A stretch of 29,990 bases of DNA from Elusimicrobiota bacterium (GTDB lineage Bacteria; Elusimicrobiota; Elusimicrobia; Elusimicrobiales; UBA9959), in contig JBAXKK010000024.1 in assembly GCA_037137395.1 (NCBI GenBank), forward strand, positions 1 to 29,990. The letters run 5' to 3'. A model generated the notes under the pieces. The model saw only the letters and a list, made by a program, of their open reading frames with translations, ran no database searches and had not been told where the DNA came from. A program made the position numbers and the translations under genes. Positions 1-26,803 of the stretch are shown piece after piece. Numbering within the stretch: position 1 is the first letter of the stretch; every line of letters starts with the position of its first letter.

Positions 1-436
1 TAAGCCAGCGCCCCGGCCTCGTCTTGCCGTATACTTTGCGCTTTAGCCGGGTTTTATACGGGCCGAGCCGCCTGTCCATGGTGGCAGCGCTCATGGCCAG
101 CAATAGGCGCTCCTCCATGGAACTTAATGGCCATTGCTGCTTTATATGCGGCAACCATAGAGGCAATAATGCTTTCAGCCTTACCGACCATGGCCGCTGT
201 GCGGCTATCCAGACTTCTTCCAGAATTCGTACAAGCCGGTTGGGATATACAGGGTCACGGAGCCGACTGATTATTTCCGGTGCAGGCTTTCGTATAAGCC
301 GGATGGCGTGTTTCCTGTGGCAGGCGAGCGTCTGGCTGACTTGCTCAATCAACCGACTCTTTTCTTTATTCCTGTTCGCATTTTTATAGATAGTTCGCAT
401 TTGTATCACGTATTCCCTCTTGGCGGAAAGGGTCAT
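1..436 (-). mobile_element. IS transposase, 5' part only (rve/DDE integrase-core, ISNCY-like); runs off the left edge
   Basis: Hand translation from ATG 436 (GGAGG SD upstream): MTLSAKREYVIQMRTIYKNANRNKEKSRLIEQVSQTLACHRKHAIRLIR...LLLAMSAATMDRRL...GKTRPGRWL. HRKHAIRL, MSAATxDRxL and TxPG are typical of this transposase group. Not in the supplied ORF track. Confidence 0.8.
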
Positions 437-544: not shown

Positions 545-574
545 TTGACTTTTTAAAAAAATATTTGCTAGGAT
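545..574 (+). promoter_or_regulatory. sigma70-type promoter, predicted TSS ~581
   Basis: TTGACT (545-550), 18-nt spacer, extended -10 TG-c-TAGGAT (566-574); the first aptamer starts right after the predicted TSS. Confidence 0.65.
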
Positions 575-581
575 TTAGTTA

Positions 582-648
582 CAGGCGAGACTTTACAGAC
601 TTAACTTGGCCCGGCCTGGGCGAAAGCCAAACTGCGACCTAAAGGAGT
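582..648 (+). promoter_or_regulatory. SAM-II/SAM-V-type riboswitch aptamer A
   Basis: P1 CAGGC(582-586)/GCCTG(614-618); UUU 592-594; UUGG(606-609) pairs CC-U-AA(638-642) with bulged U; ACUU(599-602)/GAGU(645-648); GGC-GAAA-GCC hairpin (619-628) in loop 3. Confidence 0.6.
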
Positions 649-700
649 TTTTTTATTGGTCTATAAAACATAATCTGAAGTTGCCACGCAGCAGGTGGCA

Positions 701-741
701 AGGTATTTAATATCCAACTTGTCACCTAAGACTAAAGCGGA
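701..741 (+). promoter_or_regulatory. SAM-II-type riboswitch aptamer B
   Basis: P1 AGGU(701-704, alternatively 693-696)/ACCU(724-727); UUU 706-708; UCC(713-715)-AAC-UUGUC(719-723) pairs GAC-U-AA(730-735)-AGC-GGA(739-741). Confidence 0.7.
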
Positions 742-763
742 ACAGCTGAAAATAATTGCTGAG

Positions 764-803
764 ACCCGCTTTCAACTACAAGTTGCCGGCGGGTTTTCCT
801 TTT
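764..803 (+). terminator. Intrinsic terminator (expression platform of aptamer B)
   Basis: ACCCGC(764-769)/GCGGGT(789-794) with inner CAAC/GTTG, then TTTTCCTTTT. Antiterminator helices CAACTTGT(715-722)/ACAAGTTG(778-785) and AAAGCGG(734-740)/CCGCTTT(766-772). Confidence 0.65.
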
Positions 804-837
804 CCGCCCCTATCACGGTAAATATAGAGGTATATAT

Positions 838-2169
838 ATGAAACGATCCAAAAGACGGTTTCGGCCATTCTGGCCGGTAAATGTTGAAGACGCGCCGGCA
901 TCTTCCGGCATAGAGCAGTTTGTTTCCTTAAGAGAGTTAAACCGATGGGCGTTTGACTTCCTTAAAACATATCTTTACGCGCTTCATTCCGGTACCCTGG
1001 CTAATATCGAGGTCAAAGTTAAATCCTTTCACGCCATGACGTCAATTAACCATCCCGTAATCTCAAAGCCGAGGATATCTTTTCAGGTTGAAAGCGGACT
1101 GGTCCAAATAGAGGATAGCTATGTTTACGCGCAGGTTAACTACGGCGGAGCCGATTATTCAGTTAATCTGTTAAGAATGAACCAGGATATGCAGGGTATT
1201 GTTTATGAGATTGTGGTTGCCGGGACCTCCGCCGAGGCTAAAAGGCCTGATACGCTCCGTGACCTTTTAATTAATACGGCAATAAGCAATTCCATGTACC
1301 GGGGTAAAATACTCCGCGTCCTGGAGGCTCCAGATGCGCATGATGACGAAGACCCCGGATGCCTGAATGTGGAAATCGTTAAAAATATTGAAGGCGCGAC
1401 TTTAAGCGATGTGTATTTGCCGGAGAACGTGTCTAAGGAACTGCGCAAGTTTATAGAGTGCGCCGGCAGATATGACGAATTAAAGCTCTCTCTCAGATAT
1501 TTGCTGTCAGGGCCTCCGGGCACGGGCAAAACCCAGATCGTCCGGGCCATAGCAAAAGCCTGCGAAGGGAAAGCTACAATCATTCTCGCCAGCGGAGGTG
1601 ACGCCCGGCTTAATATGCTCTTCTCCTTCGCTAATATTTTCAGCCCGGCCATACTCTGCATTGATGATATAGATCTGGTGGTAGGTGAAAGGGAGCGGAT
1701 GTATAATAAAAATGTCCTTGGAACCTTCCTGCAGAAGCTGGACGGCTTCGTTCAGAATAATGTGTTTGTGCTGGCCACCACTAATGACAAAGGTATGGTA
1801 GATATGGCCGCCAGCCGGCCCGGGCGGTTTGACCACATAATTGATGTCGGCGCCCTTGAGCCGCACAACTACCTTGACCTGGTGAAGCGGTGCACGAAGG
1901 ACCGGGAGATTGTGACTCTGTTTGAGGACGGAGATGTGCTGGCGCTTCTTAAGCATAAGGAGATAGTGGGCGCGTTTCTCGCTAATCTGGTTAAACAGAC
2001 GGTTATAAGTAAGATGACCAACGGCAAGGAAGGTATAGGTAAAACGGAGCTGCTGGCGATAATAAACCGCACCTACCGCGGCTTCTATCAAAATCCGTCA
2101 AAGGCGGGCGTCGGCTTCGCGCAAGCGCCGTTCGGCGGAGCGTCCATAATATCCTGCGAGAGCGAATAA
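838..2169 (+). CDS. AAA+ ATPase (single classic AAA domain, unrecognised N-terminal ~180 aa)
   Basis: Walker A GPPGTGKT, Walker B ILCIDDID, sensor-1 ATTN, SRH RPGRFD; SD GAGGT upstream. Confidence 0.85.
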   Translation: MKRSKRRFRPFWPVNVEDAPASSGIEQFVSLRELNRWAFDFLKTYLYALHSGTLANIEVKVKSFHAMTSINHPVISKPRISFQVESGLVQIEDSYVYAQVNYGGADYSVNLLRMNQDMQGIVYEIVVAGTSAEAKRPDTLRDLLINTAISNSMYRGKILRVLEAPDAHDDEDPGCLNVEIVKNIEGATLSDVYLPENVSKELRKFIECAGRYDELKLSLRYLLSGPPGTGKTQIVRAIAKACEGKATIILASGGDARLNMLFSFANIFSPAILCIDDIDLVVGERERMYNKNVLGTFLQKLDGFVQNNVFVLATTNDKGMVDMAASRPGRFDHIIDVGALEPHNYLDLVKRCTKDREIVTLFEDGDVLALLKHKEIVGAFLANLVKQTVISKMTNGKEGIGKTELLAIINRTYRGFYQNPSKAGVGFAQAPFGGASIISCESE

Positions 2170-2251
2170 TACGGATAAGCGCGCCAGAAGTAGCCGGGGT
2201 AAGGAAGGTTAAAAGGAATGTAAAGAAAAACAAACTAAACAAAAATTAAAA

Positions 2252-2304
2252 GGGCTATATTTATTCCAACTTGTTTGCCCGATCGGTCTGATAAACTAAA
2301 TAGG
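2252..2304 (+). promoter_or_regulatory. SAM-II-type riboswitch aptamer C (metK leader)
   Basis: P1 GGGC(2252-2255)/GCCC(2277-2280); UUU 2260-2262; CC(2266-2267)-AAC-UUGUUU(2271-2276) pairs AAAC-U-AA(2293-2299)-AUA-GG(2303-2304); directly upstream of SAM synthetase. Confidence 0.8.
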
Positions 2305-2330
2305 CGCGCCGGTTTTTTACGGCGCATCAG

Positions 2331-2368
2331 ACCGCTACCAAAATACAAGTTGGCAGCGGTTTATTTTT
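2331..2368 (+). terminator. Intrinsic terminator (expression platform of aptamer C)
   Basis: ACCGCTACCAA(2331-2341)/TTGGCAGCGGT(2350-2360), one mismatch, then TTATTTTT. Antiterminator CCAACTTGT(2266-2274)/ACAAGTTGG(2345-2353) and CGGTCTGAT(2284-2292)/ATCAGACCG(2326-2334). Confidence 0.75.
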
Positions 2369-2397: not shown

Positions 2398-3558
2398 ATG
2401 CTGAAAGGAAATTACATGTTCACCTCGGAGTCGGTAACGGAAGGCCACCCGGATAAGGTCTGCGACCAGATCTCGGACGCGGTGTTGGATGAGATACTTA
2501 AAGAGGATCCGCTGGGCCGCGTGGCCTGCGAAACCATGGTTACAAACGGCCTGGTGGTAATAGGCGGCGAAATAACCACCAAAACCTATGTTGATGTCGA
2601 GAGCGTGGCCCGCAAGGTTATAAGCGATATAGGCTACAACTCGTCGGTCTATGGGTTTGACGCCAAGTCCTGCGCGGTAATAAGCGCCATACACAAGCAA
2701 TCGAAAAATATAGCGCGGGGCGTTAACACCGGCGGGGCGGGAGATCAGGGGATGATGTTCGGTTACGCCTGCGATGAAACGCCGGAGCTTATGCCGCTAC
2801 CCATATACCTGGCGCACAAACTGGCGCAGCGCCTTTCCGAAGTCCGCAAGACGGATGTGTTGGATTACCTTGGCCCGGACGGCAAATCACAGGTTTCGGT
2901 GGAATACAGGGACAGCCGCCCGGTAGGCGTTACGGACATCGTGCTTTCCACGCAGCACACTGAGAAAATACTGGATAAGACCGGTGAGAAGATAACACGG
3001 GAGTCCAAAGATGAACTGATCGAGACTGTTATAAAGCCGGTGCTGGGCGACTGGATAAAGGGCGGGGTGAAGTTCCACATAAACCCGACTGGAACGTTTC
3101 TCATAGGCGGGCCGCAGGCTGATACCGGGCTTACAGGCAGGAAGATAGTGGTGGACACCTATGGCGGCATGGCGCCGCACGGCGGCGGGGCTTTCTCAGG
3201 CAAGGACCCCACAAAGGTGGACCGTTCGGCGGCGTATATGGCCCGCTACATCGCAAAGAATATCGTGGCCGCTGGCTTGGCGCGCAACTGTCTGGTGCAG
3301 ATCGCTTATGCCATAGGTATCGCGGAGCCGGTGTCCTTCCTGGTGAATACTTACGGCACCGGCAGGGCGGCTGACGAGCGGCTTACTGAGATAGCCCGCG
3401 CGCTGTTCCCGCTTAAGCCCGTTGATATCATAAGCGCTCTGAACCTGCGCAAGCCGGTGTACCTGCGGACCGCCGCCTACGGACACTTCGGCCGCGACGG
3501 CTTCGCCTGGGAAAACACCGATAAGGCGGAAGCCCTGAAAAAGGAGGCGCTTAACTAG
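2398..3558 (+). CDS. metK: S-adenosylmethionine synthetase
   Basis: [36 protein letters not shown] signatures; SD AAGGAG. Confidence 0.98.
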
Positions 3559-3863
3559 CCGTCGTTTGAAATACAAATAACGATCATAGAGAGTAGGGTT
3601 AGCTTGAAAGTTGCAACTGCAACTTTCCGTCCGCATAGCGGGCGCCCATTCGGGAGGCATACACCTCTTTGGGCCGGGCGCGCATAGCGCTGGGCCCTCA
3701 GCCCGCTATGCGGGGAATCCTGCAGAATAACTCTGTTCCCTGATTTCCTAAGTGAAATCTATCGTGAACTGCAGGATTCAGGTTGGGGAACGGCCCGTCT
3801 GAAACCCTTGCCAACCTGCCGCCGCACGGCGGTAAGGTGGAACAGCCGACCTTAGGAGGAACT

Positions 3864-5375
3864 ATGAAAAAAATATTATCTTCACAGAATACCGCGGAAC
3901 TGACTGCAAATAAAAAAACAATTATTGGTGAGCCGACAGCTCCGCCAAAGCTCTCCCGGCTGGCCGGGCTCGGTGTTTACGGCTTTGACCGCTCCGAGCC
4001 GGTGATATTGGCGGCGCTGATCACTGAAGATCCGCTGCTGTTGATAGGCCCGTCGGGAACAGGCAAGACCTATCTGCTGAACACGCTATCGGAGGCGCTG
4101 GGCCTTAATCACCGCCATTACAACGCGAGCCTCATTTCTTTTGACGACCTTGTCGGATTTCCGTACCCGGATAAAGACAATGCCGGCGTCAAATTCCTGG
4201 AAACGCCGGCCACCGTGTGGGGCGCCCAGTCCGTACTGATCGACGAGATCAGCCGCTGCAAGCCCGAGCATCAGAATCGGCTCTTCTCGCTGATCCATGA
4301 GCGGCGGATTCAGGGAATCCCTTTGACAAAACTGCGCTTCCGCTGGGCGGCCATGAACCCCTGCTCGTCAGATCAGGGAAGCATTGAGGATTATGCAGGT
4401 TCTGAGGCGCTGGACCCGGCACTCGCCGACCGGTTTTCTCTTTTTGTGCAGGCGGCGGATTGGAATGAGCTTACTAAGGAAGAGCGCCTGCTCATCGCGG
4501 CGCCTGCCGGTGAGGGCCGGGTGGCCAATGATGGCGGCCGCCTCCGCGATGAGGTGGCGCTCTGGCGCAAAGAGTTTTTGTCGCGGTTGGAAAGTTGCCC
4601 GCCGATAATTTCAACCTATGTCGAAGCCGCCATCACGGCGCTAAGCGCTGGTGGCGCGCGGCTTTCCCCGCGCCGCTCAACCCTGATGACAAGAAGTTTA
4701 TTCGCTGCGACCATCGCGGTGTGCAATCAATCAGAGTCCATCTTCCGCAGTATCCTGCAAGCCAGCTTACCGCACCAGTGCTGGGGCGTTGCGATAAAGC
4801 GCGAAACAGTGGCGGCGGCGCACAGGGTAGCCTGGGCCAGCGCCCAGCCGGACTCTCCCGGTATCTGGCTGCATTCTTTTATGGCCGAGAAAAATCTGGC
4901 GCGCAAGCTGGCTATACTTGTGGAAAAGTGCGATTCCCCGGATAGCGGCACCCAGGCTGTGGCCGAGCTGCTGGCCTCGGAGGCGCCGGAACGCGCAGCC
5001 GCCTTTGCTTTTGTCACCTATCCCGCCGCTGTCGCGGGAAAGCTGCCTATCGGCGCCGAGGGGGTAAACGACCTCGGCAAGGCGGCTGCGCCATTTCTTA
5101 CCGCTAAAGGAGATATTGTCTGGCAGGAGCGAAAATCAACTATGACTCTGAAACAGGCGTTTGTGGCGGCGGCGACGCAGGGAAAACAAACGAAGCACCC
5201 TGACTTCGTCCGCTACGCGGCAGTCCTAAATAATTTGGAGGGCGGGCGCGCGGAACGCGCCAAGCAGTTTTTTAACGGCTGCCTGGCGCAAAAATACACG
5301 GTGGCCGATCCGGAAGGATTGGAAATTGAGATAAACCAATGTGTGGAAATCCTGACGCAGCGAGGTCTGATATGA
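3864..5375 (+). CDS. MoxR-like AAA+ ATPase with C-terminal extension
   Basis: GPSGTGKT, LIDEISR, WAAMNP, LDPALADRF; start moved to ATG 3864 because of AGGAGG at 3854-3859. Confidence 0.85.
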   Translation: MKKILSSQNTAELTANKKTIIGEPTAPPKLSRLAGLGVYGFDRSEPVILAALITEDPLLLIGPSGTGKTYLLNTLSEALGLNHRHYNASLISFDDLVGFPYPDKDNAGVKFLETPATVWGAQSVLIDEISRCKPEHQNRLFSLIHERRIQGIPLTKLRFRWAAMNPCSSDQGSIEDYAGSEALDPALADRFSLFVQAADWNELTKEERLLIAAPAGEGRVANDGGRLRDEVALWRKEFLSRLESCPPIISTYVEAAITALSAGGARLSPRRSTLMTRSLFAATIAVCNQSESIFRSILQASLPHQCWGVAIKRETVAAAHRVAWASAQPDSPGIWLHSFMAEKNLARKLAILVEKCDSPDSGTQAVAELLASEAPERAAAFAFVTYPAAVAGKLPIGAEGVNDLGKAAAPFLTAKGDIVWQERKSTMTLKQAFVAAATQGKQTKHPDFVRYAAVLNNLEGGRAERAKQFFNGCLAQKYTVADPEGLEIEINQCVEILTQRGLI

Positions 5376-5821
5376 GCGCGTATTGGGATGTCCTTCAGAA
5401 TGTGGGCGGTCAGGGGCGTAAGTGGCGTAAGCAAAAGATTCACTCGTCCATTCTGGGTAAAAGCGACGGTGTCCCGCGCTGTCGGCTTGTTACCCGCCTG
5501 TGTCTTGGTTTTGCCGCCGGTGAAGATCCGGTCACCGTTATTAACGGGATTCTGGCGGGAAAGGGATACAGCAGCCCGGAACAACTGCGCGGCGCGTTCA
5601 GCCTGCCGGCAGGGCGGCTTATATGCAGACCGGCTGGAAAAATCATACGCGGCGTCTACCTCAGGGTAAAGACCGCCGATCGGGATAAAGTTCTTGAGCA
5701 GGCCCTGCTGCTGGGGCTTTGCACAAGCCAGATCTTTGACCCCGCGCGCCCAGTGCTCTGGACAACCGTCAGCCTTACGCGCGCCCTTGAACTTTTTGAC
5801 CCGGCGGGGTTCTACTTATGA
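5372..5821 (+). CDS. Hypothetical protein (149 aa)
   Basis: ATGA overlaps with both neighbours (5372-5375 and 5818-5821), exactly filling the gap; no recognised motif. Confidence 0.7.
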   Translation: MSAYWDVLQNVGGQGRKWRKQKIHSSILGKSDGVPRCRLVTRLCLGFAAGEDPVTVINGILAGKGYSSPEQLRGAFSLPAGRLICRPAGKIIRGVYLRVKTADRDKVLEQALLLGLCTSQIFDPARPVLWTTVSLTRALELFDPAGFYL

Positions 5822-7212
5822 ACGATATAAATGAAAAACGCTTCCGTGAGATCGTCATAGAGCTGATTGACGAGAATCCCTTCGCTATAAGGGCGGTACT
5901 AAAGATCCTGGATATCGTCGTCACTGCCGGCATTCCTACGCTTGCCGTTACTTGTGAGAGCCATCCGCGGCTTTTAGTCAGCCTGGAATTCCTGAAAAAG
6001 TATTGTCGGGACGACCAGCAGGTTAAGGCCGTCATCTGCCATGAATTCCTGCATGTGCTTCTTCGCCACACGGAAACCAGGGGCGCCTTTAGCGCGGCGA
6101 AGCATATGGCGTTTGACGCCGTAATCAACGCTATTATTCACCGCCAGTACGGCGCCGCTTATTCTTCTATGATGTCGAACTATTACGCGGAAGCGCAGGA
6201 TCTTACAAAGCTGCTGCGCCCAATGAACGCGCAAGAGCGCGCCTCGTACGCGAGACAGCAATCTGACCAGCGTTTTGGTCTGCCGCAATGGGTGCATACG
6301 TGGGACGCGCTCTATAAGGGCCGCCTTGTCGTCGATGATATTGAGGCGCTTATTGTGGATATGAAAAATATCGGCGGTGCCGATGGGCTAGAGGACGACG
6401 CCGGGTCCGGCTTATTCAAACTTAAGACCGGGCTGCCAGAGGGGCTTGATAATCTGCTCGGCGATCATGAAAATATTGGGAAACCGCTGCCGGAGGGATT
6501 GCGCGACGCGCTTGAAGAGGCGCTCAGGCAAATGGATGGTTCGGGAATCTGGCATAGCCCCAAAAGCCGCGGTGTCGGGGCTAACCCCTATGAGACGCTG
6601 CTCACCGCGCACAACGACCCAATGCGCAACTGGGAGAGGAAGACGCTTGAGATCCTTAAGCGGCACCTATCGCCGGATAGGCATTCGCGCGCCAGGCGCC
6701 TTGAGGAAGCGGCGGCCCATATCCCCGTGCTTTCGCCCAAAGACCGCAGGGCATTTATGCGCGCTCTGTGGGCGCCGTTTCTGCCTGATGCCGAATGGAA
6801 CACGCAGCAGCCAAAGCGTGAAGGCACGGCTCAGGTGTATCTGGATGTTTCAGGTTCTATGTGCGCTGAAATGCCGACATTGATCGCGCTTCTTGGCAGG
6901 CTGTTATGCTACATTCGCCGCCCGTTCTGGGCCTTCAGTGACGGGGTCGCCCCGGCTGTGATAGAGCAGGGGCAGCTTAAAGCGCGAAGCACGGGCGGAA
7001 CGAACATGACTTGCGTTCTGGAACACATCGCGAAGACCAGACCCGCGGCCGCCGTGATAGTGAGCGATGGTCATATTGAAACCCTTGACCCCCGGCTGGT
7101 CGCCAGGATCGCAGGCACGCGGCTGCATGTCCTGGTCACTCGCGGCGGCAGTACAGAAGAGTTGCGGCGCGCCGGGCTGTCTTATACCCGGTTGAGGAGG
7201 ATATCTGCATGA
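5818..7212 (+). CDS. Putative metallopeptidase-vWA protein (DUF2201-like)
   Basis: N-terminal HEXXH (CHEFLHVLLRH); C-terminal MIDAS DVSGS, STGGT, IVSDG. Confidence 0.8.
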   Translation: MNDINEKRFREIVIELIDENPFAIRAVLKILDIVVTAGIPTLAVTCESHPRLLVSLEFLKKYCRDDQQVKAVICHEFLHVLLRHTETRGAFSAAKHMAFDAVINAIIHRQYGAAYSSMMSNYYAEAQDLTKLLRPMNAQERASYARQQSDQRFGLPQWVHTWDALYKGRLVVDDIEALIVDMKNIGGADGLEDDAGSGLFKLKTGLPEGLDNLLGDHENIGKPLPEGLRDALEEALRQMDGSGIWHSPKSRGVGANPYETLLTAHNDPMRNWERKTLEILKRHLSPDRHSRARRLEEAAAHIPVLSPKDRRAFMRALWAPFLPDAEWNTQQPKREGTAQVYLDVSGSMCAEMPTLIALLGRLLCYIRRPFWAFSDGVAPAVIEQGQLKARSTGGTNMTCVLEHIAKTRPAAAVIVSDGHIETLDPRLVARIAGTRLHVLVTRGGSTEELRRAGLSYTRLRRISA

Positions 7213-8440: not shown

Positions 8441-9346
8441 ATGAAAAACACACACGAAGTAAACAGTAAAGATGTTAAATCGGTTGAACCCCTGACTGTC
8501 GCCGGGCGGCTTAAAGCCGGCGGGAAGGTCTTTTCGGTTGAGTTTTATCACCCGGATATACGGGAACGGAGGGAAGCGCTTTTTTGCAACGCTAAAAAAT
8601 TGAAAGCTTTCTCCCCGGATTTTGTTTTTACAACCGATATTGCAGGCGCGGAGTTCGGGAAAGCGGTTTCTATTATTAAAAGACTTAAAGTTGCCGCGGG
8701 CGGGGAGTTAGTGGCGTGCTTAACCTGCGCAAAACATAGCCGCGGTGAAATAGCCGGGATCTGCGTCCGGTTGAAGAGTATCGGCGTCAAAAATATCTTA
8801 GCGCTTAGGGGGGATATGAGTAAACTGAAAAGTCCAGTCCCCGGGCGCGACTGGCAGCACGCCTCCCGGCTTATTGAGGAAGTTAAAAAAACAGGCGGGT
8901 TCTGCCTGGGGGGAGCCTGTTATCCTGAAAAGCATCCCGAGGCGCCGACGCTGGAAAGTGATATTGACCATCTTAAGGAAAAAGTGGACGCCGGAGCCGA
9001 ATACCTGGTCACACAGTATTTTTTTGATAACTCCAGCTACTTCAGATTCCTTGAAAAGACAGCCGCCGCGGGCATAAATGTGCCCATACTGCCTGGTTTG
9101 TTGCCCATACATGTATATCTGGATGGGGCGGGGCGGAATATGGAAGTTGCTATACCGAAACCGCTACAGCGTGGTATTGAGCGTTGGAGCGGAAACAGGA
9201 ACGGGTTGTTAAATTTCAGCGCGAATTATGTCTTAACGCAGGCCGCCGATCTTTTGCGGGGCGGTGCCCCGGGGCTGCACATCTACACGCTTACTCACAG
9301 TTTCGCGGCGGAAGTTGTTTTGAAGAGCCTGAGGCGCGCGCAATAG
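8441..9346 (+). CDS. metF: Methylenetetrahydrofolate reductase (divergent)
   Basis: FSVEF, LTC, LALRGD, YPEKHPEA, KVDAGA, TQYFFD, GLHIYTL; SD AGGAGG. Confidence 0.88.
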   Translation: MKNTHEVNSKDVKSVEPLTVAGRLKAGGKVFSVEFYHPDIRERREALFCNAKKLKAFSPDFVFTTDIAGAEFGKAVSIIKRLKVAAGGELVACLTCAKHSRGEIAGICVRLKSIGVKNILALRGDMSKLKSPVPGRDWQHASRLIEEVKKTGGFCLGGACYPEKHPEAPTLESDIDHLKEKVDAGAEYLVTQYFFDNSSYFRFLEKTAAAGINVPILPGLLPIHVYLDGAGRNMEVAIPKPLQRGIERWSGNRNGLLNFSANYVLTQAADLLRGGAPGLHIYTLTHSFAAEVVLKSLRRAQ

Positions 9347-9361: not shown

Positions 9362-9419
9362 GAAATAAAGTGACACACAACTCAACAACTGCTAATTAAG
9401 TTGTGTGTCACTTTATTTC
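9362..9419. repeat. Perfect 21-bp inverted repeat, 16-nt loop (REP-like element or terminator)
   Basis: GAAATAAAGTGACACACAACT(9362-9382)/AGTTGTGTGTCACTTTATTTC(9399-9419). Confidence 0.85.
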
Positions 9420-9525
9420 GGGCTATTGTCCTGACCCGGTTACTACCCCCAAAAATCCTACTTTTGTGTCAGACTGGAGTCATACTGGTGTTTCAGCCTC
9501 ATGTCGCAGTTAGTCATTATCATTA

Positions 9526-18442: not shown

Positions 18443-18729
18443 TGGACTGCGCCTGGTCGGCAGCCGCCTGGGGCGCGGCCTTCGGGCTGTTGAACGGAGG
18501 GCTTTCCCGGGCAGCTCTTAAGAAAGCGGTGGATAAGGCGGATAAGGTCTTTTACGCGGCGTTCGTGGGCGGATTCTTGTGGCGGCTTTTTTTTCTCGTC
18601 GGTGCTGTGTGGCTTTTAAGGGATAAAAAGTATATAATTTTACTGACATTCTCCGGTGTTCTTATTTTAACGCAGTTCATTTTTGAAGCGGTCCCGTTGA
18701 AAAAAAATGGAACTAAAAGCGATACTTGA
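18439..18729 (+). CDS. ATP synthase protein I-like membrane protein
   Basis: Hydrophobic 96 aa overlapping both neighbours, just before atpB. Confidence 0.7.
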   Translation: MMDCAWSAAAWGAAFGLLNGGLSRAALKKAVDKADKVFYAAFVGGFLWRLFFLVGAVWLLRDKKYIILLTFSGVLILTQFIFEAVPLKKNGTKSDT

Positions 18730-19471
18730 ACATCATATCCTGGACCATATCTGGACCTTTTTCAGCCTGGGACCGCTGACGCTTCCTTTTTCTAAGCATG
18801 TGCTGATGATGTTTATTGTGGCCCTCGTTCTGCTGATCGGGCTGCCAGCCCTGATCTCAAGCAAAAGTCCGGCGCTCGCGCCCTTCAGAGCAATGATAGA
18901 GATAATAGTTCTTTTCCTGAGGGATGAGGTTGTCGGCCCTAATCTCGGGCATAAGACCGCCGCCTATCTGCCTTATTTTTCCACTCTGTTTTTTTTTATA
19001 CTCGCCATGAATCTTGCAGGGCTGGTGCCTTATGGGGCTACCGCTACGGGAAATCTGGCGGTTACGGGCGGCTTGGCGCTCACCACGTTTGTACTTCTTA
19101 ATCTGTCGGGCATGAGGGAGCAGGGCGTCGTGGGTTATTTCAGCCACCTTGTGCCTAAAGGCGTGCCGTTCTGGCTTTACCCCCTGCTTTTTCCGATGGA
19201 ACTTCTGGGGATGCTTACCAAGACTTTCGCGCTCTGCGTCAGGTTATTCGCCAATATGATAGGGGGCCATATAGTTGTTCTATCCCTCATAAGTCTCATC
19301 TTTATTTTCGGCGGGCTGAATACGGCGCTTGGTCTGGGAGTCACCGCGCCGATAGCGGTGCTTATGGTGCTGTTTGTCATGCTATTGGAACTGTTCGTCG
19401 CTTTTCTGCAGGCGTACATTTTCACTTTTTTGACGGCGATTTTCACCGGCGCCGCCATGCACCCGCATTAA
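18707..19471 (+). CDS. atpB: ATP synthase Fo subunit a
   Basis: ALCVRLFANMIGGH (essential Arg), LQAYIF. Confidence 0.96.
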   Translation: MELKAILEHHILDHIWTFFSLGPLTLPFSKHVLMMFIVALVLLIGLPALISSKSPALAPFRAMIEIIVLFLRDEVVGPNLGHKTAAYLPYFSTLFFFILAMNLAGLVPYGATATGNLAVTGGLALTTFVLLNLSGMREQGVVGYFSHLVPKGVPFWLYPLLFPMELLGMLTKTFALCVRLFANMIGGHIVVLSLISLIFIFGGLNTALGLGVTAPIAVLMVLFVMLLELFVAFLQAYIFTFLTAIFTGAAMHPH

Positions 19472-19580
19472 CAGCCGGCCTTTAAGAAGGCAGGCTGCGC
19501 CATACGCCCAGAGCTTATGGCATACGGCTTATGGCTTATGGCAGTAAAATCTAAGATGTTGATAATAACGGAGGAATAAT

Positions 19581-19889
19581 ATGAATGATATGATGTTTTT
19601 AGGACTCGGTTACATCGGCGCGGGCGTGGGCGCCGGCCTTACGCTTATAGGCGCCGGTCTCGGTATAGGTAAGATGGCCGCCAGCGCTGTTGAAGGCACG
19701 GCACGCCAGCCGGAAGCGGGCGGAGCAATAAGGACTACAATGATCATCGCGGCAGCGCTCATCGAAGGCCTCGCTTTCTTCGCACTGGTCATCTGTCTCC
19801 TGGCTTTAATGAACTTCGGCATGCCAAAACAAGAAGCGGCCGCCGGCGCGCCCGTAGTTGCGCCAGCCCAGATTCAAGCGCATAAATAA
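19581..19889 (+). CDS. atpE: ATP synthase Fo subunit c (likely H+-type)
   Basis: GAGLGIG, ARQPE, ALIEGLAFF; lacks the Q...E(S/T)xxY Na+ signature. Confidence 0.96.
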   Translation: MNDMMFLGLGYIGAGVGAGLTLIGAGLGIGKMAASAVEGTARQPEAGGAIRTTMIIAAALIEGLAFFALVICLLALMNFGMPKQEAAAGAPVVAPAQIQAHK

Positions 19890-19972
19890 TCAGCGGTTAG
19901 TGATCAGTAGCTAGTGGATTATTATTCACACGCTCACCGCTCACCACCATACACTACGCACCGGAGCTTACC

Positions 19973-20491
19973 ATGGAAGCATTGATAAGGCCTGAATTCG
20001 GCCTGATGTTCTGGACCATCTTCATCTTTATTCTATTGGTCCTTATCCTCTCAAAGACGGCCTGGAAGCCGCTTATGAAAGCCGTTGAAGAACGGGAACA
20101 CGGCATACGCCATGATCGGGAAGCCGCCGAGAAAGCCAGGCTTGAGGCCGAAAAAATAAAAGAAGGGCTGGAAGCCGGTATGGCTGCGCTTAAAATAGAG
20201 ATCGAGGCCCGACTGAACGAGGCCCGCGCGTCCGGCGTCCGGGAGCGGGACCTGATAATAGAGGACGCCCGGAAAAGCGCAGCCCTGCTTATTGAGACGG
20301 CCAAAACGGAGCTTGAATCCCAGAAAAACGCGATGGTGCGGGAGCTGAAAGACAAGGTTGCCGAGCTGGCGCTCCTCGCGGCGGAGAGGGTTCTTCAGAA
20401 AACCATAGATCAGAAGGCCGATAGAGAGCTGGTGAACCATTTTCTGAAGGAACTTGAAAGCGGTGATGCCAGGTATAAACTGGGGAAATAA
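19973..20491 (+). CDS. atpF: ATP synthase Fo subunit b
   Basis: N-terminal TM FWTIFIF..L..ILSKTAWKP, coiled coil, operon position. Confidence 0.93.
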   Translation: MEALIRPEFGLMFWTIFIFILLVLILSKTAWKPLMKAVEEREHGIRHDREAAEKARLEAEKIKEGLEAGMAALKIEIEARLNEARASGVRERDLIIEDARKSAALLIETAKTELESQKNAMVRELKDKVAELALLAAERVLQKTIDQKADRELVNHFLKELESGDARYKLGK

Positions 20492-20494
20492 AAA

Positions 20495-21052
20495 ATGAAA
20501 GCCGCGGATAAAACACTATCAAAGCGGTATGCCAGGGCCTATATGGGTTTGGACGGCGCCGCTTTTGACAAGCATGGGGAAGCCTCGGCCGCGCTCAGGA
20601 TAGCGGAGCTGGAAAAAGTTCGGAGCGCCGCCGGCCAATTCGTGCGCCTGTTCCTGCACCCCCTGGTAGGCTATGACGATAAAAATGAAATTCTGACCAG
20701 GCTGCTTTCCAAGGATGTGATAACCTCGCGGGCCGCGGCGCTGGTGGGTCTGCTGATCAGAGAGAACAGATTTTATCTGCTGGATGCTGTTCTGGAGGAC
20801 TGCGTTAAGTTTTATAACGATTATGCCGGCATCGCGCTGGCCGAAGTCGCCTCCCGTCATCCGCTGAGCGAAGAAGAGCTGCGTCATATCGCGAGGATAC
20901 TGTCCTCCGCTTCCGGCAAAAAAGCCCGGGTCACCCAGGTGGCTTCTGAGAGCGTTATAGGCGGGATGGAGATACGGATGGGGGACCTGCTGATAGACGC
21001 CACGGTGAAGGGAAGGCTTAAAAAACTGAAGAACAGCATTTTAAAATATTGA
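20495..21052 (+). CDS. atpH: ATP synthase F1 delta
   Basis: KRYARAY, VIGGMEIRMGDLLIDATVKGRL. Confidence 0.92.
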   Translation: MKAADKTLSKRYARAYMGLDGAAFDKHGEASAALRIAELEKVRSAAGQFVRLFLHPLVGYDDKNEILTRLLSKDVITSRAAALVGLLIRENRFYLLDAVLEDCVKFYNDYAGIALAEVASRHPLSEEELRHIARILSSASGKKARVTQVASESVIGGMEIRMGDLLIDATVKGRLKKLKNSILKY

Positions 21053-21167
21053 TGGCCAGCGGCACCAGAATTAAGACGTAAAAGGTGAAGAGTTAAAGAA
21101 TTAAAAAATCAGCGTTTAATGCTTGCCGCATAAAATTTAGCCGCATACGTTTTTTTGAGAGGAAACC

Positions 21168-22682
21168 ATGATAAGACCAGAAGAGATCACTCAGATAATT
21201 AAGAGCAGGATAGAAAAATTCGTGCCGGAAGCCGAGCTTTCCGAGACCGGTCAAGTGCTGCAGATCGGCGACGGGATCGCACGCGTTTATGGCCTGAATA
21301 ACGCCGTAATCGGAGAGCTGGTGGAATTTGAGGGTGGCGTTTCCGGCATGGTGCTCAATATCGAGCGCGAGAATGTCGGCGTGGTGATCATGGGCGGCGA
21401 TTCTCTGATACGGGAAGGCGACCGCGTTAAGCGGACCAACCGCGTGGTGGATATACCCGTGGGGCCGGAGCTCATAGGCAGAGTTGTGGATCCTCTCGGA
21501 AATCCTATAGACGGCAAAGGGCCGTTGAACGCAAAGAAGAGGCGCCCGGTGGAGGTAATCGCTCCCGGCGTGCTGGAGCGCGCTCCGGTCAGGGAAGCGC
21601 TGCAGACCGGCATAAAGGCCGTGGACGGCATGATCCCCATAGGCCGCGGTCAGCGCGAACTTATAATCGGCGACAGGCAGACCGGCAAGACGGCCATAGC
21701 TATAGACACCATAATAAACCAGAAAAAAGAGCCGGCTGACAGGCGCCCCATCTGCATTTATGTTGCTATCGGGCAGAAAGAATCCACGGTTGCCCGGGTG
21801 GCCAAAACTCTGGAAGAGCACGGCGCCATGGAGTATTCCATAATAGTTTCAGCCACCGCCTCCCAGCCGGCTTCGCTCCTTTATCTCGCGCCGTATTCAG
21901 GCTGCGCCATAGCCGAGGGCTTTCTCTGGGAAGGAAAGCACGCCCTTATAATCTACGACGACCTTTCAAAACACGCCCAGTCTTACCGCCAAATGTCGCT
22001 GCTGCTGCGCCGCCCGCCCGGCCGCGAGGCCTACCCCGGCGACGTGTTCTATCTGCATTCAAGACTGCTTGAACGCGCCTGCAAACTTTCCGATAAGAAC
22101 GGCGGCGGTTCCATAACCGCCCTGCCGATAATCGAAACGCAGGCCAATGATGTCACAGCTTACATCCCCACCAATGTTATTTCTATTACCGACGGGCAGA
22201 TCTACCTTGAGCCGTCTCTTTTCCATTCCGGCATCAGGCCGGCGGTGAATGTCGGCATCTCGGTATCGCGCGTGGGAAGTTCGGCTCAGATCAGGGCTAT
22301 GCGGCAGGTGGCCGGCAGGCTCCGGTCGGACCTGGCGCAGTACAACGAACTAGCTGCTTTCGCGCAGTTCGGTTCCGACCTGGACAAGTCCAGCATGGAC
22401 CAGCTCAAGCGCGGCGAACGACTGGTGGAGCTGCTGAAGCAGGAGCAGTTCAAGCCTATGCCAGTGGAAGAGCAGGTGCTTGCGTTCTTCGCCGGCACCC
22501 GCGGGCATCTTGATGATATTGAGCTGCCCAAGATTAAAAAATTCGAAGCCGACCTCTTAAGGTTTGTGAAAGATAGGTACGCGAACCTTCTGGCCGACAT
22601 CGCTGCTAAAAAACAGCTGGACGCCGAGCTTGAGTGCAGGATTGTGGACGCGATAGCTGAGTTTAAGAAGAGTTTTGTGTAA
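21168..22682 (+). CDS. atpA: ATP synthase F1 alpha
   Basis: [37 protein letters not shown]. Confidence 0.98.
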
Positions 22683-22793
22683 AAATATTTAGGGTTTAAA
22701 ATCATCGGAAGCAGGATTTAAGATTAAAATTCGCGGGTTAACGATTGCCGGCAGTTTCCAATCCTGATTTTAAACCCGGAATCTTGAATTAAA

Positions 22794-23726
22794 ATGGAGA
22801 ATAAAATGAGATATCTGGTCACAGGCGGCGCCGGATTTATAGGTTCCAACCTGGCTTTCACGCTCACCGGAGAGCGAAAAGCCGACGTGGTAATCCTTGA
22901 TAATTTCTCGTCTGGAAATTTTAAAAATCTTATCGGTTTCAAGGGCGACGTTATAGGCGATGACATCCTAAGCCGCGAATGGTGGGATAAGACGGGGAAA
23001 GTGGACGCCGTTTTTCACGAGGCCGCCATAACCGATACCACCGTGCACGACCAGAAGCGCATGATGGAGGTGAACGTTGAAGGATTCAGGAATATACTGC
23101 GCTTTGCCCTTGAAAAAGGCGTAAAAAGAGTCGTGTACGCCTCTTCCGCCGGCGTTTACGGAAACGGCGCGTGTCCCATGACGGAGGAGCAGCCGCTGAC
23201 GCCTGAGAACGTGTATGGGTTTTCAAAAGCAATGATGGACAACGTGGCGCGGGAATTCGCGGCCGCGCACGCGGATATTACGCTGGTCGGTCTGCGCTAT
23301 TTTAACGTGTACGGCCCCCGCGAATACTACAAAGGCCACGCCGCCAGCATGATGTATCAGCTTTACCTGCAGATGAAGGCCGGCCAGCGGCCTAGAATAT
23401 TCAAGTTCGGTGAGCAGATGCGTGATTTTGTATATGTAAAAGACATCATTCTGGCCAACCTTAAAGCTCTTGAGGTTAAAAAATCCGGCGTAGTGAACGC
23501 CGCCACCGGCGCGCCGGAGAATTTCAACAAGGTTATAGAGTGCCTTAATAAGGCCATGGGCTCTAGCATAGCCCCGGAATATTTTGACAACCCTTACGGG
23601 TTTTTTCAGGTTAAGACCCATGCTGACCTAGGGCGCGCGGGGGCTTACCTGAACTACCGGCCGGAATGGAGTCTTGAAGCCGGTATAGCCGATTACGTGC
23701 AGGAATTGAAGAAAGCTGGTATATAG
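22794..23726 (+). CDS. hldD: ADP-L-glycero-D-manno-heptose 6-epimerase (extended SDR)
   Basis: TGGAGFIGS, FHEAAITDTT, YASSAGVYG, YGFSK, GLRYFNVYGPREYYKG..ASM. Confidence 0.85.
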   Translation: MENKMRYLVTGGAGFIGSNLAFTLTGERKADVVILDNFSSGNFKNLIGFKGDVIGDDILSREWWDKTGKVDAVFHEAAITDTTVHDQKRMMEVNVEGFRNILRFALEKGVKRVVYASSAGVYGNGACPMTEEQPLTPENVYGFSKAMMDNVAREFAAAHADITLVGLRYFNVYGPREYYKGHAASMMYQLYLQMKAGQRPRIFKFGEQMRDFVYVKDIILANLKALEVKKSGVVNAATGAPENFNKVIECLNKAMGSSIAPEYFDNPYGFFQVKTHADLGRAGAYLNYRPEWSLEAGIADYVQELKKAGI

Positions 23727-23834
23727 AGTGTGAGTTTGAGAGTTCTTAAAATTGAAGAGTCGGGTAAAGTTGCGGGGCTTGAAACTCCGGAAGCCACATG
23801 ATTTTATAAACACGGTAACTCGCTGACTGAATTT

Positions 23835-24737
23835 ATGGCATCTTTAAGAGACATACGAAAACGCATCAAATCCGTTAAAAGCATAAAGCAGATAACTTAT
23901 GCCATGAAGATGGTTTCCGCGGCGCGCATCAAGCGCGCTCAGAGCGCTATTTTGTCTTCCCGTCCCTTCGCGCTGAAGATGGAGGGCCTGATAGCCGACC
24001 TCTATACCGAGATGGAGAGTTCGCAGTTCAGAGATTCCCCCGCGTACAATCTGTTCGCGGAAACCCCCGGAGCGGACGTCGTCGGGCTGGTGCTGATCGC
24101 CGGAGATAAAGGGCTGTGCGGCTCATTCAATTCCAATCTCCTTAAAGCCGCGACGGCCTGGCTGACAGAAAATCGCGACAAAAGAATGCGTGTCATCTGC
24201 GTGGGGCGCAAAAGCCGGGATTTTATAAAAAGACTTAAAGGTCTAAACCTTGAAATAAGCTATGAGATGGTGGGGCTGTTCCCCAAGGCGGGGTATGTCC
24301 ACGCCGATATACTGGCAATAAACGTTTTAAAAATGTTCTCCGGCGGAGATGTCCGGTCTATTACTCTCATATATAATGAGTTTAAATCCATGTTGACGCA
24401 ACGCGTGGTCCGCGAAGAGCTGCTGCCGCTTAAGAGCCACATACTTGAAACCCCGGATCCCGCAGGGAGGAAACTCCGGGATTTCAGCTTTGAGCCGAAA
24501 AAACACGTGCTGCTTGAGGCGCTGCTTCCCAGATATATCGGAGCCCAGCTCTACAGGGTGCTGCTTGAATCGCAGGCGGCTGAACTGGCGGCGAGAATGA
24601 ACGCCATGGAAGCGGCTTCAAAGAACGCTTCCGACCTGATAGATGGGCTCACGCTGAAGCTTAACAAGATGCGTCAGGCGATGATAACCACCGAGCTTAA
24701 CGAGATCGTGAGCGGCGCGGAAGCACTGGGCGGGTAA
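23835..24737 (+). CDS. atpG: ATP synthase F1 gamma
   Basis: IKSVKSIKQITYAMKMV, DKGLCG, RQAMITTELNEIVSGA. Confidence 0.97.
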   Translation: MASLRDIRKRIKSVKSIKQITYAMKMVSAARIKRAQSAILSSRPFALKMEGLIADLYTEMESSQFRDSPAYNLFAETPGADVVGLVLIAGDKGLCGSFNSNLLKAATAWLTENRDKRMRVICVGRKSRDFIKRLKGLNLEISYEMVGLFPKAGYVHADILAINVLKMFSGGDVRSITLIYNEFKSMLTQRVVREELLPLKSHILETPDPAGRKLRDFSFEPKKHVLLEALLPRYIGAQLYRVLLESQAAELAARMNAMEAASKNASDLIDGLTLKLNKMRQAMITTELNEIVSGAEALGG

Positions 24738-24853
24738 TTGACCAGAGGTAAGGATGCACAGCAAGTTGGCAATTTAGACGCAAAGCCATTCTGCAGTTCA
24801 GAGGCGCAGCGATTCAGCGATTTAGAGGCGCGTCCGAATTGCTTTACATCTAA

Positions 24854-26323
<1,470 letters not shown>

Positions 26324-26383
26324 AGTCCCGGCATTTACTAAATTGCTGTGCCTCTAGATTGCCATGCGGCTACAGGTATGTTT

Positions 26384-26803
26384 ATGAAAAATAAACTTTT
26401 GCTCACCATTTTGACTCCTGAAAAAGCGGTACTGACCGACAAGCCGGTGGATTTTGTGGCTATACCGGCTTTCGGCGGCGAGATGGGTGTACTGCCGGGG
26501 CACGCTTCTTTCGTGGTGCAGTTGAGGGAAGGCGTTCTGAAATATAAGGACGAGCATAAAAGAGAGATGTTCGCGGTACTGAATGGTTTTGCTGAAGTCC
26601 ATGCGGACAAGGTTTTGATCCTGGCCGAGGCCGCCGAGTTCGCCAGGGAAGTGGATGAGGAACGCGCCCGGCAGGCCTATCAGAAAGCGAAGGATAGTCT
26701 GGCTATGCGCGGAAAAGACTTGGATCTTGACGCCGCGCAAGCCGCTTTACGGCGCGCCATACTTCGTGTCAAGATAGCGGAGTTCAGGAAAAAATACAAA
26801 TAA
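26384..26803 (+). CDS. atpC: ATP synthase F1 epsilon (start 26378 or 26384)
   Basis: ILTPE, GEMGVLPGH, GFAEV, ILAEAAE. Confidence 0.93.
   Translation: MKNKLLLTILTPEKAVLTDKPVDFVAIPAFGGEMGVLPGHASFVVQLREGVLKYKDEHKREMFAVLNGFAEVHADKVLILAEAAEFAREVDEERARQAYQKAKDSLAMRGKDLDLDAAQAALRRAILRVKIAEFRKKYK

What the first reader, a model, noticed from the sequence alone, without database searches (positions are those of the whole stretch)
582..2368. Three SAM-II-type pseudoknot aptamers in 1.8 kb that show compensatory pairing with each other
Seen: sites 582-648, 701-741 and 2252-2304 all read P1...UUUA...(P2a)-AAC-UUG..P1'...C-U-AAA..(P2a'). Helices differ in sequence but keep pairing: P1 CAGGC/GCCUG, AGGU/ACCU, GGGC/GCCC; P2b UUGG/CC.AA, UUGUC/GAC.AA, UUGUUU/AAAC.AA. 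Known: this register (UUU triples, bulged U, CC-N3-UUG / C-U-AA-N3-GG) is the SAM-II/SAM-V core. One copy precedes metK. Inference: a possibly lineage-specific SAM-II variant with an invariant AAC linker that standard models may miss.
Basis: partly seen in the sequence, partly recalled or inferred. Interest (0 to 1): 0.8.

Follow-up and report, generated by a model that had tools for sequence, protein, structure and literature searches.

The report
SAM-II riboswitch variant, three copies
Three small RNA switches of a known type that senses the methyl donor SAM sit in front of a spare SAM-making gene; they belong to a widespread sub-family that the standard RNA library mostly misses, and they most likely stop transcription when SAM is plentiful.

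Summary
All three pseudoknots are real. Rfam misses them, but covariance models built without this genome's close kin find them. They keep the SAM-contacting bases of SAM-II/SAM-V. They differ at one pocket-adjacent base (A18 to C, the C of 'AAC').

The AAC form is not lineage-specific. It occurs in marine alphaproteobacteria, Acinetobacter, phage contigs and other Elusimicrobia. In the last group 13 of 23 tested downstream genes were metY, metH or sulfate-transport genes. SAM is therefore the likely ligand, but binding is untested.

Sites 2 and 3 each have a terminator whose arms are complementary to the aptamer, giving an antiterminator (ON without SAM, OFF with SAM). Site 1 has no clear platform of its own and may share site 2's terminator. 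The sites lead an AAA ATPase gene and a second metK, followed by a SAM-I-like switch and a MoxR/vWA module. The scan has reported Rfam-missed SAM-II/V variants and this module before on other DNA. Verdict: new variant of a known kind.

The parts
545..574 (+). sigma-70-type promoter (-35 at 545-550, -10 at 569-574); transcript would start just before site 1
   Evidence: 9 of 12 matches; such hits are at chance level in that scan; both hexamers kept in the congener leader
582..648 (+). aptamer 1, SAM-II/V-type pseudoknot with GNRA hairpin 619-628
   Evidence: model R2 without close kin E 1.5e-6; not found by R1; kept in G001
648..701 (+). U7 run directly after aptamer 1, then a 7-bp hairpin 681-701 with a poor U tail; role unresolved
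   Evidence: U run and a shorter hairpin also in G001
701..741 (+). aptamer 2
   Evidence: R1 E 4.5e-9, R2 E 5.6e-7; P1 changes on both sides in G001, AGGU/ACCU to CGGU/ACCG
763..803 (+). intrinsic terminator of site 2; 766-772 pairs with aptamer 734-740 and 778-785 with aptamer 715-722 (antiterminator)
   Evidence: U tail is interrupted here (fails my strict rule) but passes in G001
838..2169 (+). AAA+ ATPase, 443 aa, function unknown
   Evidence: Pfam AAA; 44% identical homologue beside metK in G015; no orthologue-level match in 5 of 5 congeners searched
2252..2304 (+). aptamer 3
   Evidence: R1 E 4.7e-5; R2 only E 0.034
2329..2368 (+). intrinsic terminator of site 3; 2326-2334 pairs with 2284-2292 and 2345-2353 with 2266-2274 (antiterminator)
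2398..3558 (+). metK, second copy (another at G000:C1, 66% identical)
3582..3869 (+). SAM-I-like aptamer interrupted by a 183-nt dispersed repeat (3603-3785); its P1 would cover the start codon at 3864
   Evidence: uninterrupted copy in G001 scores 31.4 bits on RF00162, cut-off 44.4; insertion mapped
3864..7212 (+). MoxR-type ATPase, small ORF, vWA/peptidase-like ORF
   Evidence: weak Pfam hits; same three genes in G001, G015, G299; MoxR and vWA homologues in G352
8441..9346 (+). metF (methylenetetrahydrofolate reductase)

Best explanation
[quoted passage not shown] Sites 2 and 3 are transcriptional OFF switches. Without SAM, the aptamer strands pair with both arms of the downstream terminator and RNA polymerase reads on. 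With SAM, the pseudoknot triplex locks those strands, the terminator forms and transcription stops. One promoter at 545-574 probably drives site 1, site 2, the AAA gene, site 3 and metK, so the spare SAM synthetase is made only when SAM is low at two successive checkpoints. Shown: sequence, pairing, covariation, gene context, complementarity. Inferred: SAM binding, switching, and transcript continuity. The role of site 1 is open.
For: Pocket: 11 of the 13 bases listed as fully conserved in SAM-II (PMC3764141 section 14) are present in all three sites; the other two (C23-G42) are replaced by another Watson-Crick pair. The ligand-contacting U47, A50, U9 and U20 of SAM-V (PMC6061858) are all kept. 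A18 only donates its amino group to A50, which C could also do (inference). Covariation at positions the search pattern left free, in 119 distinct hits: next P2b pair 111 against 41 shuffled, P1 of 4 bp or more 89 against 13.5. On alignment A3, 22 cells change on both sides against 7.7 shuffled and at most 3 in slid controls (alignment fitted to the model). Context: R1 matched 36 of 150 genomes of the class. Of 23 downstream proteins tested, 6 were MetY, 1 MetH, 3 CysT, 1 CysA and 2 sulfate-binding proteins. A SAM-I/IV switch lay in 4 of 20 other loci. The MoxR orthologue (61% identical) is led by an AAC aptamer in G352 but by a SAM-I-like aptamer here and in G001, an exchange between unrelated folds. 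Platform: terminators follow 32 of 39 aptamers against 48 of 465 random positions. The site-2 transcript paused before the terminator's 3' arm folds into the two-helix antiterminator (-20.5 kcal/mol). For site 3 the two states are about equal (-37.4 and -37.0).
Against: No binding or expression data. No Rfam model scores these sites. Many AAC copies outside Elusimicrobia precede genes of no known family (33 of 40 tested had no Pfam hit), so context supports SAM only for part of the family. 10 of the 23 Elusimicrobia genes were porin-like, TPR or unassigned, and 6 of 29 loci were dropped because my descriptor did not match them. The 3'-strand antiterminator was significant against shuffles in only 10 of 39 homologues. 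The U tail of terminator 2 is interrupted, and neither terminator was listed by the consensus scan. The full-length site-2 transcript prefers the terminator without ligand (-26.3 against -21.7), so switching there must be kinetic. Models R1 and R2 descend from a pattern taken from these sites, so their hits are partly circular.
Confidence: 0.85

Rival explanations
1. The fold is right but the A18C change retunes the pocket to a SAM relative (SAH, decarboxylated SAM or MTA).
For: C18 sits beside A50, which binds the amino-acid end. The word CAACU occurs 0 times in the 2009 SAM-V alignment. Many AAC copies lead unknown genes. A SAM-I variant is known to have changed ligand (PMC10853860 passages).
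Against: All bases that touch SAM are kept. The genes led include metK, metY, metH and cys genes behind terminators, which fits repression by SAM. The AAC form exchanges with SAM-I in front of one orthologue. One phage locus holds an AAC and an A18 copy.
Confidence: 0.07
2. Only sites 2 and 3 work; site 1 is a decaying relic of a riboswitch that lost its platform.
For: No good terminator follows site 1. Its P2a departs from CC/GG. R1 misses it. Only two independent versions were found.
Against: Between G000 and G001 the core, P1 and GNRA hairpin are unchanged while loops vary, and P2a changes keep pairing. R2 scores it 29.4 bits. A two-aptamer leader also heads the related operon in G015.
Confidence: 0.25
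3. The three look-alikes are chance or simple duplication without RNA function.
For: The motif is short and AU-rich; a loose version of the pattern matched at control level across 401 genomes. Sites 2 and 3 share terminator sequence and are paralogous.
Against: Shuffle control, covariation at free positions, position in leaders of sulfur genes and complementary terminators.
Confidence: 0.02

Closest known systems
SAM-II riboswitch (Rfam RF00521 SAM_alpha; metX structure 2QWY)
   Same: H-type pseudoknot, UUU third strand, UUG/CUAA core, bulged U, 2-bp P2a; terminator control is known for SAM-II (PMC9481103 passages).
   Different: C in place of A before UUG; C23-G42 replaced by U-A or G-C; no model score; found in Elusimicrobia before metK and cys genes.
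SAM-V riboswitch (Rfam RF01826; metY structure 6FZ0, PMC6061858)
   Same: Same pocket; U-A pair after UUG in sites 2 and 3; a P3-like hairpin in site 1. One AAC copy elsewhere passes the SAM_V cut-off.
   Different: SAM-V hides the ribosome-binding site, whereas these sit 90-250 nt upstream of the gene with terminators. The linker is mostly RUA in the 2009 alignment.
Tandem SAM-II riboswitches (44 examples; PMC9481103)
   Same: Two SAM-II-type aptamers in one leader.
   Different: In the passages read, each aptamer has its own platform, and SAM-II is not listed among dual aptamers with one platform. Here sites 1 and 2 have one clear terminator.
metXZ element of betaproteobacteria (PMC4239095), later called canonical SAM-II (PMC5473149 passage)
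   Same: A SAM-II missed by Rfam, with terminator and antiterminator.
   Different: Its alignment is a figure I could not read, so I cannot say whether it has the AAC linker.
SAM-II long loops (Rfam RF01726)
   Same: Same core in another phylum.
   Different: All rows of the one part read have A before UUG; no hit here.

Membership tests
General SAM-II class (SAM-II and SAM-V) | H-type pseudoknot with P1 and P2 | tested here: met
   covariation in homologues
General SAM-II class (SAM-II and SAM-V) | UUU third strand, U-A pairs, G-C pair, bulged U and A47/A50 that contact SAM | tested here: met
   all present in the three sites
General SAM-II class (SAM-II and SAM-V) | Leader position upstream of SAM, methionine or sulfur genes | tested here: met
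   metK here; 13 of 23 tested homologues in the class; weak outside it
General SAM-II class (SAM-II and SAM-V) | Expression platform exclusive with the aptamer | tested here: met
   sites 2 and 3 by folding; unresolved for site 1
General SAM-II class (SAM-II and SAM-V) | Selective binding of SAM over SAH | not testable with these tools
   needs probing or calorimetry
SAM-II, Rfam RF00521 | Score at or above 36 bits | tested here: not met
   no hit at these sites
SAM-II, Rfam RF00521 | C23-G42 pair | tested here: not met
   G-C in site 1, U-A in sites 2 and 3
SAM-V, Rfam RF01826 | Score at or above 41 bits | tested here: not met
   0 of 5 genomes including this one
SAM-V, Rfam RF01826 | A18 pairing with A50 | tested here: not met
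   C in all three sites; CAACU 0 times in the 2009 alignment
SAM-V, Rfam RF01826 | P2a covers the Shine-Dalgarno sequence | tested here: not met
   terminators instead; 94 of 119 AAC hits elsewhere do have this layout
SAM-II long loops, Rfam RF01726 | Model score | tested here: not met
   no hit at E up to 10
Breaker-lab expanded SAM-II alignment | Whether C18 representatives are already included | not tested
   alignment not seen: I read only passages of PMC5473149 and PMC9481103 supplements were unavailable

The most novel reading that the evidence does not exclude
Sites 1 and 2 form a dual-aptamer SAM-II switch on one terminator. Either unbound aptamer can lend its AACUUG strand to the terminator's CAAGUUG (602-608 or 715-721 with 779-785), so both must bind SAM to stop transcription, giving a steeper response. 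The related operon in G015 has the same two-aptamer, one-terminator layout. This would be an architecture not listed for SAM-II in the passages read, within a C18 sub-class spread over several phyla that also marks unknown SAM-controlled genes, including one conserved across Acinetobacter.
Probability: 0.3. Interest if true: 0.7.

Novelty: new variant of a known kind. Interest (0 to 1): 0.48.

Why it matters
It extends the SAM-II class well beyond what Rfam annotates. The C18 form appears to be the main sulfur and methionine switch of several Elusimicrobia families (13 of 15 and 9 of 12 genomes in two families), with none recognised by Rfam in 20 such loci. It also flags many unannotated genes as candidates for SAM control, among them a roughly 140-aa gene conserved in Acinetobacter. 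The substitution beside the amino-acid-binding base is a simple test of pocket tolerance. It is not a new ligand or fold on present evidence.

Tried and rejected
Rfam on the window at three scales gave only unrelated sub-threshold hits. The descriptor found the motif upstream of metK in only 2 of 30 loci, this one and G001, so it is not the leader of the housekeeping metK. A loose pattern over 401 genomes matched at control level and gave one useful lead (L102). In viral contigs only 5 or 6 of 65 pattern hits looked structured. Defence role of the AAA gene: PADLOC and NCBIfam hits to IetA/IteA are generic AAA matches far below cut-off; rejected as evidence. The Treponema AAA behind an AAC aptamer is not an orthologue. 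No viral relatives of the AAA or MoxR proteins and no plasmid relative of MoxR were found. The Atlas gave no hit at 0.9 or above for the Acinetobacter protein. No RNA holder was listed. One search opened the wrong supplement (rpsL). A spermidine-type reading of the SAM-I-like element was considered but not tested base by base. Seven paper searches listed no description of an AAC/C18 sub-type or of SAM-II in Elusimicrobia; the library lacks most subscription papers, and unseen supplements may hold such sequences.

Full report
Observation. The three sites are present as described. A pseudoknot descriptor finds them as the only AAC-linker matches in the 2.7-Mb genome. It finds 3 in 401-2500 against a mean of 0.084 in 1000 shuffles; the descriptor was written after seeing the sites. 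Rfam gives no SAM-II, SAM-V or long-loop hit on the window. RF00521 and RF01826 pass their cut-offs in 0 of 5 genomes tried, this one included.

Setting. A sigma-70-like promoter at 545-574 precedes site 1, site 2, a terminator, an AAA ATPase gene, site 3, a terminator and metK. This metK is a second copy; the other is 66% identical. Downstream lie a SAM-I-like aptamer, a MoxR/small ORF/vWA module and metF. A record titled as an Elusimicrobia bacterium carries sites 1 and 2 before MetK (L144), which places the genome in that phylum by inference. Its leader reads the same as that of L002, so the two are not independent.

Congener. G001 has sites 1 and 2 and one terminator directly before the same metK (98% identical). 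Site 2 changes on both sides of a P1 pair and gains a P2b pair. The AAA gene and site 3 are absent, and the junction is a 36-nt imperfect repeat made of the two terminators' 3' halves. In G015, another genus, a 44% identical AAA gene lies next to metK and MoxR, so loss in G001 by recombination between terminators is the simpler reading; the direction is not proven.

The family. Among 119 distinct hits, positions not fixed by the pattern pair far above shuffles: next P2b pair 111 against 41, P1 of 4 bp or more 89 against 13.5; 94 end in a Shine-Dalgarno sequence like SAM-V. Rfam recognised a SAM-II/V hit in 7 of 20 such loci at E up to 3, 1 above cut-off, and a SAM-I/IV switch in 4 of the 20. 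Model R1 (36 sequences, no close kin) finds site 2 (E 4.5e-9) and site 3 (E 4.7e-5) but not site 1. R2 (43 sequences) finds site 1 (E 1.5e-6), site 2, and site 3 only weakly. Both descend from a pattern made from this window, so these scores show membership of one family, not function.

Ligand. R1 matched 36 of 150 genomes of the class. Of the 29 other loci returned, 23 matched my descriptor and 6 were dropped. Their downstream proteins were 6 MetY, 1 MetH, 3 CysT, 1 CysA, 2 sulfate-binding, 3 porin-like, 3 TPR and 4 unassigned. Rfam found no SAM switch in 20 of these loci. In G352 an AAC aptamer leads the MoxR orthologue that a SAM-I-like aptamer leads here. Against this, 33 of 40 genes tested behind the wider set have no Pfam family.

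Pocket. From PMC6061858 (parts 2 and 3 of 5 read), SAM is held by U47 and U8, by A50, and by the U20:A48.U9 triple; A18 donates its amino group to A50. All contacts are kept in the three sites and A18 is C, whose amino group could serve (inference). Of 13 bases listed as fully conserved in SAM-II (PMC3764141 section 14), 11 are kept and the C23-G42 pair is swapped. In the 2009 SAM-V alignment (PMC2704228 file S7; part 1 of 8 read, whole file searched) CAACU occurs 0 times against 71, 38 and 167 for three A18 words, although A at position 17 occurs. SAM-II and SAM-V count as one general class (PMC5473149 passage).

Mechanism. Terminators follow 32 of 39 aptamers against 48 of 465 random positions. 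Site 2 has two antiterminator helices, 715-722/778-785 and 734-740/766-772; together they are the lowest-energy fold of the transcript ending at 786 (-20.5 kcal/mol). The finished terminator wins later (-26.3 against -21.7), so control must be kinetic. Site 3 has 2266-2274/2345-2353 and 2284-2292/2326-2334, about equal in energy to the terminator (-37.0 against -37.4; lowest fold in a slightly longer window). Both use strands that the SAM-bound pseudoknot would lock, so SAM should switch the genes off. Weak points: terminator 2 has an interrupted U tail, and the 3'-strand antiterminator beats shuffles in only 10 of 39 homologues.

Site 1. It has no clear terminator. It could share terminator 2, since 602-608 is complementary to 779-785 (seen in the sequence; not the predicted fold, and about 170 nt away). 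It could end transcription at the U7 run that follows its last helix, or act through the hairpin at 681-701, or be idle. G015 has two tandem aptamers whose identical 3' strands match the 5' arm of a single terminator. Other tandems in the class mostly give each aptamer its own terminator, which is the layout described for 44 tandem SAM-II cases (PMC9481103 passages; supplements unavailable).

Prior knowledge. Terminator-type and Rfam-missed SAM-II elements are known (PMC4239095 passages and section 10; PMC5473149). Seven searches listed no paper on a C18 sub-type, but I did not see the Rfam seed or the Breaker-lab alignment. Other papers were seen as passages only (PMC2864571, also one supplement part; PMC10853860; PMC6429828; PMC11508383). 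Earlier notes of this scan report Rfam-missed SAM-II/V variants before metK and metH and the SAM-controlled MoxR/vWA/MetK module on other DNA. They are unchecked, and I cannot tell whether those variants are the AAC form.

Verdict. Real; works like SAM-II, fails the Rfam family tests; a new variant of a known kind, widespread rather than lineage-specific. Confidence 0.85, interest 0.48.

Noticed in passing
window 3582-3869: SAM-I-like aptamer split by a 183-nt palindromic repeat (47 BLAST hits in this genome, 27 of 140 nt or more; about 30 in G001). G001 has the uninterrupted form. P1 would cover the MoxR start codon.
   Followed up: partly
window 3864-7212; L316, L318, L324, L325: MoxR/small ORF/vWA-peptidase module beside metK in 5 to 7 of 401 genomes of the phylum; G001 and G015 add a divergent MetK-like gene that this genome lacks. 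Already noted by the scan elsewhere.
   Followed up: partly
L316 133-300 (G015): Two tandem SAM-II-like aptamers with GAC and GUC linkers and G at the A50 position, then one terminator; missed by Rfam and by model R2. A change at a ligand-contacting base.
   Followed up: partly
L324 4350-4630 (G299): Leader of the related metK operon holds terminators and what look by eye like still more diverged pseudoknots; the descriptor did not match them.
   Followed up: no
L129, L131, L133 and other Acinetobacter loci: AAC aptamer covering the ribosome-binding site of a conserved 133-153 aa gene; the copies scanned had no Pfam or NCBIfam family.
   Followed up: partly
L127, L137, L175, L186, L192: SAR116 loci with arrays of aptamer-plus-short-ORF units, up to three in 3 kb, the genes tested mostly unassigned.
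   Followed up: no
L053, L055, L073, L082: SAM-V-like AAC aptamers on viral contigs; L082 has one AAC and one A18 copy.
   Followed up: partly
L299, L300, L302, L303: In the same family, model R2 hits lie before a 379-aa gene that looks like an aminotransferase by its sequence (not scanned).
   Followed up: no
window 2-436 (minus strand): Partial ORF at the contig end that reads like a transposase start (recalled resemblance; no Pfam hit).
   Followed up: no
window 18707-26803: ATP synthase operon with an NAD-dependent epimerase gene (22794-23726) between the alpha and gamma subunit genes.
   Followed up: no
window about 9362-9423: A second short dispersed palindromic repeat with about 20 matches in G001.
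   Followed up: no
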